Below are positions 8,744 through 8,847 of a stretch of DNA of 11,406 nt, piece by piece. The DNA is from a virus. Lineage: Duplodnaviria > Heunggongvirae > Uroviricota > Caudoviricetes. Within the stretch, counting starts at the first letter, position 1; every line of letters begins with the position of its first letter. Location of the stretch: the IMG/VR virus record IMGVR_UViG_2671181122_000011. One strand, 5' to 3'. A model generated the notes under the pieces. That model saw only the letters and a program-made list of their open reading frames with translations, did not search any database and was not told the origin of the DNA. The translations under genes were made by a program, and so were the position numbers.

Positions 8744-8767
8744 TTCTTGCCCCTGAATCCGTTAAAC

Positions 8768-8793
8768 TTCTCCCAAACCAACGTTTATGAAAA
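8768..8793. promoter_or_regulatory. pix/gix-like DNA invertase crossover site
   Basis: TTCTCCCAAACCAACGTTTATGAAAA: two imperfect inverted half-sites around a central AA, matching the Hin/Gin/Cin/Pin site pattern (TTCTCnnAAACC AA GGTTTnnGAnAA). Lies 55 bp upstream of the pin ATG. Confidence 0.6.
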
Positions 8794-8847
8794 TGCAGAA
8801 ATAACGAGCAAATGGCATCATTCCTGCTTTTGTCAGGGGGATCTACC

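What the first reader, a model, noticed from the sequence alone, without database searches (positions are those of the whole stretch)
8744..8847. pix-like crossover site abuts the replication gene start instead of an invertible tail-fibre segment: pin appears orphaned
In e14, Mu and P1 the invertase gene sits next to an invertible segment carrying alternative tail-fibre ends, with the crossover site immediately upstream. Here a well-formed site (8768..8793) is present, but what lies beyond it is the 5' end of a rep gene with its own RBS, and I noticed no second site in the window. This could mark a past Pin-mediated rearrangement fusing the pin-mcrA end of one element to the replication/head module of another. 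It could also relate to the phoQ juxtaposition.
Basis: partly seen in the sequence, partly recalled or inferred. Interest (0 to 1): 0.65.

Follow-up and report, generated by a model that had tools for sequence, protein, structure and literature searches.

The report
Pix site beside an assembly gap
The Pin crossover site is real and ordinary, but it touches the satellite's replication gene only across an unresolved gap in a short-read draft assembly, so there is no sequenced evidence that pin has lost its invertible tail-fibre segment.

Summary
The 26-bp site at 8768..8793 is an exact copy of the pin-proximal crossover site of K-12 e14. It lies 54 bp upstream of an intact pin gene, and the window holds no second site. 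To its left is a phage satellite in its usual slot next to phoQ. Satellite homology ends at 8765 and e14 homology starts at 8767.

Base 8766 is the problem. The window is identical over all 11,406 bases to a public draft scaffold (GCA_001283345.2), except that this base is 'N' there. A sister isolate's scaffold has 231 Ns in place of 8386..8955.

Both filled edges stop where assemblers are expected to stall. One is the first base beyond the P-segment inverted repeat, where the two orientations differ. The other is the DUF4222/rep module boundary of the satellite.

Pin exchanges strands at 8780/8781, so a junction at 8766 that keeps the whole site cannot be a Pin product.

Verdict: an ordinary pix/pin system and an ordinary satellite, brought together by a scaffold join. 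A real inversion of about 55 kb, made by Pin at a pix-like palindrome on the satellite edge, is still possible (about 0.3). Reads or PCR would settle it. Interest is low.

The parts
8768..8793 (.). pixR, the pin-proximal 26-bp crossover site. Inner half TTCTCCCAAACC, core AA (8780-8781), outer half CGTTTATGAAAA.
   Evidence: Unique in the window with 0 expected by chance. 26/26 identical to K-12 e14. Inverted partner found 1.86 kb away in e14 of strain 210205630.
8767..8786 (.). Arm of the P-segment inverted repeat (CTTCTCCCAAACCAACGTTT). Position 8767 is its inner edge and the first base of e14 homology.
   Evidence: In 9 genomes with the same McrA allele the two P orientations diverge at the base just left of it.
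8766..8766 (.). Placeholder base: 'A' in the window, 'N' in the public scaffold. This is the scaffold join.
   Evidence: the only mismatch in 11,406 positions and the only N in L003. The sister scaffold has 231 Ns over 8386..8955.
8740..8765 (-). Last 26 nt of the satellite's DUF4222 gene (codons ..NGFRGKK, with its stop overlapping the repA ATG). Positions 8754..8765 hold 10 of the 12 nt of the left half of the pix-like palindrome AATCCGTTAACC-AT-GGTTTTCAGCTT that is present in intact satellites.
   Evidence: Alignments with O55:H7, L004 and L005.
   Evidence: Pfam. Annotated as a RepA-family helicase of 466 aa in O55:H7. The identical 296-aa product also occurs in intact satellites with DUF4222 upstream.
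7344..7832 (-). repA C-terminal fragment (162 aa), split off by a -1 frameshift in a C5 run at about 7880-7883.
1462..8765 (-). Right-hand part of a phoQ-roxA phage satellite: Nu1-like TerS 2816..3358, gpD-like decoration protein 3990..4325, gpE-like capsid 4338..5393, PerC, SSB 6485..6895, repA.
   Evidence: Pfam. 98.9% identity to O55:H7/O157:H7 over 1..8765. One mismatch to L004/L005.
8848..9402 (+). pin, a Din-family serine invertase. Full length at 184 aa, with 4 substitutions relative to K-12 PinE.
   Evidence: Resolvase E=1.5e-51 and HTH_7. Comparison with K-12.
9509..10342 (+). mcrA, followed by the icdC remnant (10576..10740): the right end of the e14-family prophage inserted in icd.
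   Evidence: Pfam HNH. K-12 alignment 8767..10791 at 97.7%.
1..1461 (+). phoQ, the chromosomal flank of the satellite's normal insertion site.

Best explanation
Positions 8768..8793 are the ordinary pin-proximal crossover site of an e14-family prophage inserted in icd. Its mechanism follows from established knowledge of the Gin/Hin/Cin/Pin family. A Pin dimer binds the two 12-bp half-sites. The site pairs with an inverted partner about 1.9 kb away, with Fis bound to an enhancer inside the invertase gene. All four strands are cut at the central AA (8780/8781), and the tail-fibre P segment is flipped.

The P segment is not at its left here because the source is a short-read scaffold (shown). The e14 contig stops at the first base beyond the inverted repeat, where the two P orientations diverge. 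The other contig stops at the DUF4222/repA module boundary of a phoQ-roxA phage satellite. The two ends are joined through one N, which appears as 'A' at 8766 (shown).

So the abutment of pix and repA is a scaffold join over unresolved sequence. It is not a sequenced fusion, and pin is most likely not orphaned (inferred). The satellite and its position next to phoQ are native and unrelated to pin (shown).
For: 1. The window equals scaffold CYEM01000008.1 except 8766 = N.
2. The sister isolate's scaffold has 231 Ns from 8386 to 8955 and differs by a SNP at 9270, so it is an independent assembly of a different isolate with the same unresolved link.
3. e14 homology starts exactly at the inner edge of the inverted repeat. 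Nine genomes with the identical McrA allele show either ...GCAGAGC or ...TTTGCCG left of that edge, 4 versus 5. Both P orientations therefore occur, and they diverge at the base equivalent to 8766.
4. High-frequency tail-fibre switching (about 50% of reads) is documented to break E. coli assemblies (PMC4134206).
5. On the satellite side, 8766 is a known polymorphic base (CCATGG versus CCATGA). A DUF4222 product cut at ...KLKTMIN is on record from 89 contigs, so contigs commonly end within about 10 nt of this spot.
6. The junction keeps the complete 26-bp site, which a crossover at 8780/8781 cannot produce.
7. None of 5,426 complete E. coli genomes spans the junction. Nothing was found in the species-representative genomes or in the JGI metagenomes.
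Against: - A paired-read scaffolder needs real read pairs. The same repA-to-pin link appears in at least two isolates, and in four going by the order of the protein accession numbers. Some DNA molecules in those cultures therefore probably do carry repA-5' sequence within an insert length of pin-5' sequence.
- The satellite contig ends 2-3 nt from the centre of an AACC-AT-GGTT palindrome, a motif seen only 8 times in 505 kb of fetched loci. A pure artefact explains this only through the coincidence that the palindrome lies on a module boundary.
- I could not show directly that the P segment, or an intact DUF4222-repA junction, exists in these particular assemblies.
Confidence: 0.52

Rival explanations
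1. A real inversion made by Pin. Pin recombined pixR with a secondary (quasi) site, the palindrome AATCCGTTAACC-AT-GGTTTTCAGCTT at the 3' end of the satellite's DUF4222 gene. This inverted about 55 kb: satellite right half, phoQ-phoP-purB...icd, and the prophage up to the P segment. repA now faces pin, either fixed in the lineage or as a sizeable subpopulation. The true junction would be AATCCGTTAACC-A(A/T)-CGTTTATGAAAA. The sequence in the record would then be a composite, gap-filled from reads of the unrecombined state.
For: - Gene orientations (phoQ+, repA-, pin+, ycgX-) fit an inversion of the K-12/O55 order and not a deletion.
- The link recurs in sister assemblies.
- One end of the link is a pix site. 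The other lies 2-3 nt from the centre of a rare AACC-NN-GGTT core whose right half, GGTTTTC, matches the outer half of pixL.
- Both scaffolds start about 44.4 kb left of window position 1. That is close to the 43.0 kb from phoQ to pixL in the full-length relative GF131, so the flipped contig plausibly runs from the satellite edge to pixL.
- Cin is reported to use quasi sites (Iida & Hiestand-Nauer 1987, listed in the references of PMC4134206).
Against: - The record shows an intact inner half-site next to the outer half, not a hybrid, and the satellite edge stops 2 nt short of where a hybrid would still be identical.
- A synthetic hybrid junction has no full-length match in 5,426 complete E. 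coli genomes, and none in the genome or metagenome pattern scans.
- Eight predicted DUF4222 fusion products of the reciprocal junction are not in the 15-billion-protein collection, and no fusion variant appeared among DUF4222 homologues. These are weak negatives.
- Both outer parts of the palindrome's half-sites match the consensus poorly (5/12 and 7/12 against pix halves).
- Its core AT differs from the AA of pix.
Confidence: 0.3
2. The junction is literal (...CCGTTAA-x-CTTCTCCC...), fixed and old. An illegitimate (non-Pin) rearrangement fused the satellite just upstream of repA to the inner edge of pixR. That leaves pin with one site and no invertible segment, which is the first reader's 'orphaned pin'. 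The N would arise because both flanks are also present elsewhere in the genome (a second satellite and a second pin locus), so the short junction-specific node was dropped by the assembler.
For: - Two contigs that abut with a single N are what a de Bruijn assembler plus scaffolder give for a unique junction flanked by repeats on both sides (inference from how these programs work).
- The contig ends in the sister assembly (8385, 8956) could be the far edges of such repeats.
- If N = C, both parents share the dinucleotide CC at the join.
Against: - It needs a breakpoint that falls by chance exactly on the edge of the inverted repeat on one side, and 2-3 nt from a pix-like palindrome centre on the other.
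- No known enzyme joins DNA at the outer edge of a half-site.
- It requires two further unseen repeat copies.
- No other public genome has the junction.
- ORFs spanning the junction are not on record anywhere.
Confidence: 0.12

Closest known systems
P region / pinE of the cryptic prophage e14, E. coli K-12
   Same: The 26-bp pin-proximal site is identical. The order pix-pin-mcrA-icdC-ycgX is the same, with 97.7% identity over 8767..10791. Pin is 180/184 identical.
   Different: In K-12 the site is followed leftwards by stfE/tfaE, the invertible P segment, with the partner site 1.8 kb away. In the window the sequence left of 8767 belongs to a satellite and is reached across an N. iraM-ymgK is missing downstream.
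Assembly breaks caused by invertase-driven tail-fibre switching (E. coli EC958, PMC4134206)
   Same: These are prophage invertible segments bounded by 26-bp sites. The culture holds both orientations (about 50% of reads), and assemblers emit separate or spurious contigs at exactly these boundaries.
   Different: That case was PacBio data with duplicate contigs. Here it is a short-read scaffold in which the segment is missing and the free contig end has been linked to another contig.
Recombination by Din-family invertases at quasi / secondary sites (Cin cixQ; Iida & Hiestand-Nauer 1987. From memory: Rozsa et al. 1995, Cin-mediated recombination at secondary crossover sites on the E. coli chromosome)
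   Same: It would explain a link between a bona fide site and a weakly matching palindrome with an AACC-NN-GGTT core, producing a large inversion.
   Different: In those cases the products are hybrid sites with the crossover at the central dinucleotide. No such hybrid is present here or found elsewhere.
Capsid-forming PICI satellites such as EcCIEDL933 (bioRxiv 10.1101/2022.09.08.507074)
   Same: In intact relatives this is an island of roughly 10-12 kb with its own integrase, an AlpA-type regulator, a replication module, a small terminase and a capsid gene, inserted at a site of its own.
   Different: Only gpE-like capsid, gpD-like decoration and Nu1-like TerS genes were seen. No portal, protease or TerL was found, so full cf-PICI membership is not shown. 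In the window the int-alpA-DUF4222 half is missing and repA is frameshifted.

Membership tests
Din-family invertase crossover site (pix/gix/hix/cix) | 26-bp imperfect dyad: two 12-bp half-sites around a 2-bp core | tested here: met
   TTCTCCCAAACC-AA-CGTTTATGAAAA at 8768..8793, identical to K-12 e14. It fits the consensus quoted in PMC4134206 Table 3.
Din-family invertase crossover site (pix/gix/hix/cix) | Lies directly next to a serine invertase gene | tested here: met
   54 bp upstream of pin, which matches Resolvase + HTH_7 over its full length.
Din-family invertase crossover site (pix/gix/hix/cix) | Inverted partner site a few kb away, bounding alternative tail-fibre gene ends | tested here: not met
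   No second site in the window. It is present in relatives.
Din-family invertase crossover site (pix/gix/hix/cix) | Both orientations of the bounded segment are observed | tested here: inconclusive
   Both flanks are seen across 9 genomes with the same McrA allele. For this genome the only hints are the contig edge at 8767 and the N.
Din-family invertase crossover site (pix/gix/hix/cix) | Fis-dependent recombinational enhancer inside the 5' part of the invertase gene | not tested
   Not examined. The pin 5' region is 97-100% identical to e14-type pin genes.
Quasi (secondary) crossover site used by a Din invertase | The recombinant junction is a hybrid site with the exchange at the central dinucleotide | tested here: not met
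   The window keeps the whole pixR site. The satellite sequence ends 2 nt before the palindrome core. A synthetic hybrid was not found in any collection.
Quasi (secondary) crossover site used by a Din invertase | Partial match of both half-sites to the consensus, and a compatible core dinucleotide | tested here: inconclusive
   The AACC-AT-GGTTTTC core is good, but the outer parts are poor (5/12 and 7/12). The core is AT against AA in pix.
Serine invertase (Pin/Gin/Hin/Cin) | N-terminal resolvase catalytic domain with the active-site serine motif, plus a C-terminal HTH | tested here: met
   PF00239 residues 3-135 and PF02796 residues 138-181. The motif GYVRVSTNDQ is read directly from the translation.
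PICI / cf-PICI phage satellite | Integrase, AlpA-type regulator and replication module, about 10-15 kb, at its own attachment site | tested here: inconclusive
   Met in intact relatives at phoQ-roxA. The window holds only the half from repA to the phoQ-side end.
PICI / cf-PICI phage satellite | Complete own capsid and packaging gene set (capsid, portal, protease, TerS, TerL, connectors) | tested here: not met
   Only capsid E-like, decoration D-like and Nu1-like TerS genes were detected.

The most novel reading that the evidence does not exclude
In one E. coli lineage of at least four isolates, Pin has used a pix-like palindrome inside a phage satellite as a secondary site and inverted about 55 kb of chromosome. 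The inverted block includes phoPQ, purB, icd and nearly the whole e14-family prophage. This would cut both the prophage and the satellite in two and place the satellite's replication gene head-to-head with pin. It would be a natural example of a tail-fibre invertase reshaping the host chromosome and immobilising two mobile elements at once.
Probability: 0.28. Interest if true: 0.55.

Novelty: not a real feature. Interest (0 to 1): 0.22.

Why it matters
As it stands, this is a caution. Invertible tail-fibre segments and mosaic satellites are places where short-read scaffolds make joins that look like biology, and a placeholder base can hide an N.

If the repA-pin link proves real, it would be a natural case of a Din-family invertase acting on a secondary chromosomal site. 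Until now that has been known mainly from engineered Cin systems. Such an event would lock a prophage and a satellite in place.

Tried and rejected
1. Reciprocal junction. I searched DUF4222 homologues for a C-terminal fusion. The only hit was a frameshift variant that reads into the primase. I also looked up eight predicted fusion proteins by exact sequence. None is on record, which is uninformative if the alleles differ.

2. Walking along the scaffold. Look-ups are limited to window proteins. PhoQ and TerS are too common, present in thousands of blocks, to reach the right assembly.

3. Protein accession numbers as positional proxies. These support the repA-pin-mcrA order in four assemblies of one batch. 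They suggest that a left-half satellite gene lies far away in the same genomes, but this is only suggestive.

4. Junction ORFs 8673..8849(-) and 8747..8914(+). Neither is on record.

5. Pattern scans for the literal junction and for the hybrid junction in the species-representative genomes and the JGI metagenomes. All returned zero.

6. One apparent hybrid hit, strain MB15. It is only a variant pix site.

7. Accession search in the literature. Nothing found.

8. Models rejected:
- S x pixL inversion: it would leave 1.9 kb between repA and pin, too far for the scaffold link.
- Pin-mediated deletion: wrong orientation.
- Microhomology joins at CTTCT or ATCCGTT: the predicted sequences do not match the window.

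Full report
**What is in the window**

- phoQ occupies 1..1461.
- From about 1462 to 8765, all on the minus strand, lies the right-hand part of a phage satellite: a Nu1-like small terminase, a gpD-like decoration protein, a gpE-like major capsid protein, PerC, SSB, and a RepA-family helicase split into 162-aa and 296-aa fragments.
- From 8767 onward lies the right end of an e14-family prophage: the crossover site 8768..8793, pin 8848..9402, mcrA 9509..10342, the icdC remnant, and then ymgL and ycgX.

**The observation**

The 26-bp site is present, is unique in the window, and is not expected by chance. It is identical to the K-12 e14 site. Pin is full length and differs from K-12 PinE at 4 of 184 residues.

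- K-12 and about 3,400 other E. coli records match from 8767 rightwards.
- O55:H7/O157:H7 genomes match 1..8765 at 98.9%.
- In those genomes the satellite sits between phoQ and roxA and continues past repA into a DUF4222 gene, several small genes, an AlpA-type regulator and an integrase.

The phoQ juxtaposition is therefore the satellite's normal insertion site and has nothing to do with pin.

**The junction is an assembly gap**

A look-up of the 296-aa RepA fragment returned a 211-kb scaffold of draft assembly GCA_001283345.2 with the same gene order. The window is identical to it at every position except 8766, where the record has its only 'N' and the window has 'A'. The same RepA fragment also occurs in intact satellites with DUF4222 upstream. 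These differ from the window by one base in 8,765, so the parental sequence at the break is known...CCTGAATCCGTTAA|CCATGGTTTTCAGC...

A second look-up found the sister assembly GCA_001286665.1. It comes from a different isolate (SNP at 9270). In it the same link is a run of 231 Ns between a contig ending at window 8385 and one starting at 8956. The adjacency of repA and pin is therefore a scaffold-level statement that recurs in that batch, and no record reads through it.

**Why the filled edges stop where they do**

In e14 the inverted repeat arms are AAACCTTGGTTTGGGAGAAG and CTTCTCCCAAACCAACGTTT, so 8767 is exactly the inner edge of the arm. Among nine genomes with the identical McrA allele, the sequence left of that edge is either ...GTAATGCAGAGC or ...CCCGTTTTGCCG. 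These are the two orientations of the P segment, and they differ from the very first base. Cultures with an active invertase hold both orientations, and this is known to break E. coli assemblies (PMC4134206).

On the satellite side, the base equivalent to 8766 is polymorphic among related satellites (CCATGG versus CCATGA). A DUF4222 product truncated at ...KLKTMIN is recorded from 89 contigs, which shows that public contigs often end within about 10 nt of this point. It is the boundary between the conserved DUF4222 gene and the exchangeable replication module.

**Why the written junction is not a Pin product**

Invertases of this family cut and exchange at the central dinucleotide, here 8780/8781. 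A recombinant between pixR and any other site would keep only the outer half, CGTTTATGAAAA, next to pin. The window keeps the inner half as well, and the foreign sequence begins at the outer edge of that half-site. No arrangement of one or two Pin reactions that I could construct gives this (notes).

**What argues that something real lies behind the link**

- A paired-read scaffolder needs read pairs, and the link recurs in different isolates.
- The orientation of the genes corresponds to an inversion of the segment from the satellite edge to pixR, relative to the K-12/O55 order.
- Both scaffolds begin about 44.4 kb left of window position 1. This is close to the 43.0 kb from phoQ to the distal crossover site in GF131, which carries a full-length e14-family prophage with the same pinE.
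- In intact satellites the break lies 2-3 nt from the centre of AATCCGTTAACC-AT-GGTTTTCAGCTT. Its AACC-NN-GGTT core occurs only 8 times in 505 kb of fetched loci, and its right half begins like the outer half of pixL.

A Pin-mediated inversion at this quasi-site is thus a serious rival. There is no positive evidence for it:
- no hybrid junction in 5,426 complete genomes;
- none in the genome or metagenome scans;
- no reciprocal fusion protein.

It also does not explain why an intact inner half-site was gap-filled next to pin.

**Weighing**

- Ordinary pix/pin system and ordinary satellite, joined by a scaffolder across unresolved sequence: about 0.5.
- A real Pin-made inversion whose junction is misrepresented in the record: about 0.3.
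- A literal, non-Pin fusion that truly orphans pin: about 0.1.

Read mapping, PCR or one long-read assembly would decide. Whichever holds, the site itself and pin are already known, and the satellite belongs to a known kind.

Noticed in passing
window 7880-7883 (repA): The satellite helicase gene is split into 296-aa and 162-aa ORFs by loss of one C in a C5 run, relative to O55:H7. The same frameshift is present in intact satellites of other strains (L004, L005, L006), so it predates the repA-pin link.
   Followed up: yes
window ~10746-10791: About 0.8 kb carrying iraM and ymgK is absent between icdC and ymgL, compared with K-12. The two K-12 alignments overlap by 46 nt, which suggests a deletion between short direct repeats. 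The same structure is seen in L050 (GCA_036175405.1).
   Followed up: partly
window 9270 (inside pin): The T here is private to the window and its source scaffold. The sister assembly and nine other genomes with the same McrA allele have C.
   Followed up: no
L004 9971-9980; L007/L009/L010 equivalents: The palindrome AACCATGGTT at the 3' end of DUF4222 exists only in the Val (GTT) allele. The Ile (ATT) allele found in other satellites destroys it. If it is a quasi-pix site, it is allele-specific.
   Followed up: partly
Protein P0318 (DUF4222 cut to 93 aa), 89 public contigs: Many draft assemblies have a contig end at the DUF4222/replication-module boundary of this satellite family. This is consistent with genomes that carry two or more mosaic satellites sharing DUF4222.
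   Followed up: partly
L007-L016: The identical small-terminase protein occurs in satellites at several different insertion sites (near ccm genes, clpS, ydgV, phoQ), with either RepA-type or D5-primase-type replication modules. This points to extensive module shuffling within the family.
   Followed up: no
L037 (Logan contig of run ERR1744010), equals window 7102..8740: An unscaffolded contig from another read set ends 3 nt inside the repA start codon, 25 nt short of the scaffold join. I could not explain this end point or establish whether the run belongs to the same lineage.
   Followed up: no
window 2881 (terS): A160 in the window versus T160 in the otherwise identical satellites L004 and L005. 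A160 is the common allele, listed in more than 4,000 index blocks.
   Followed up: yes
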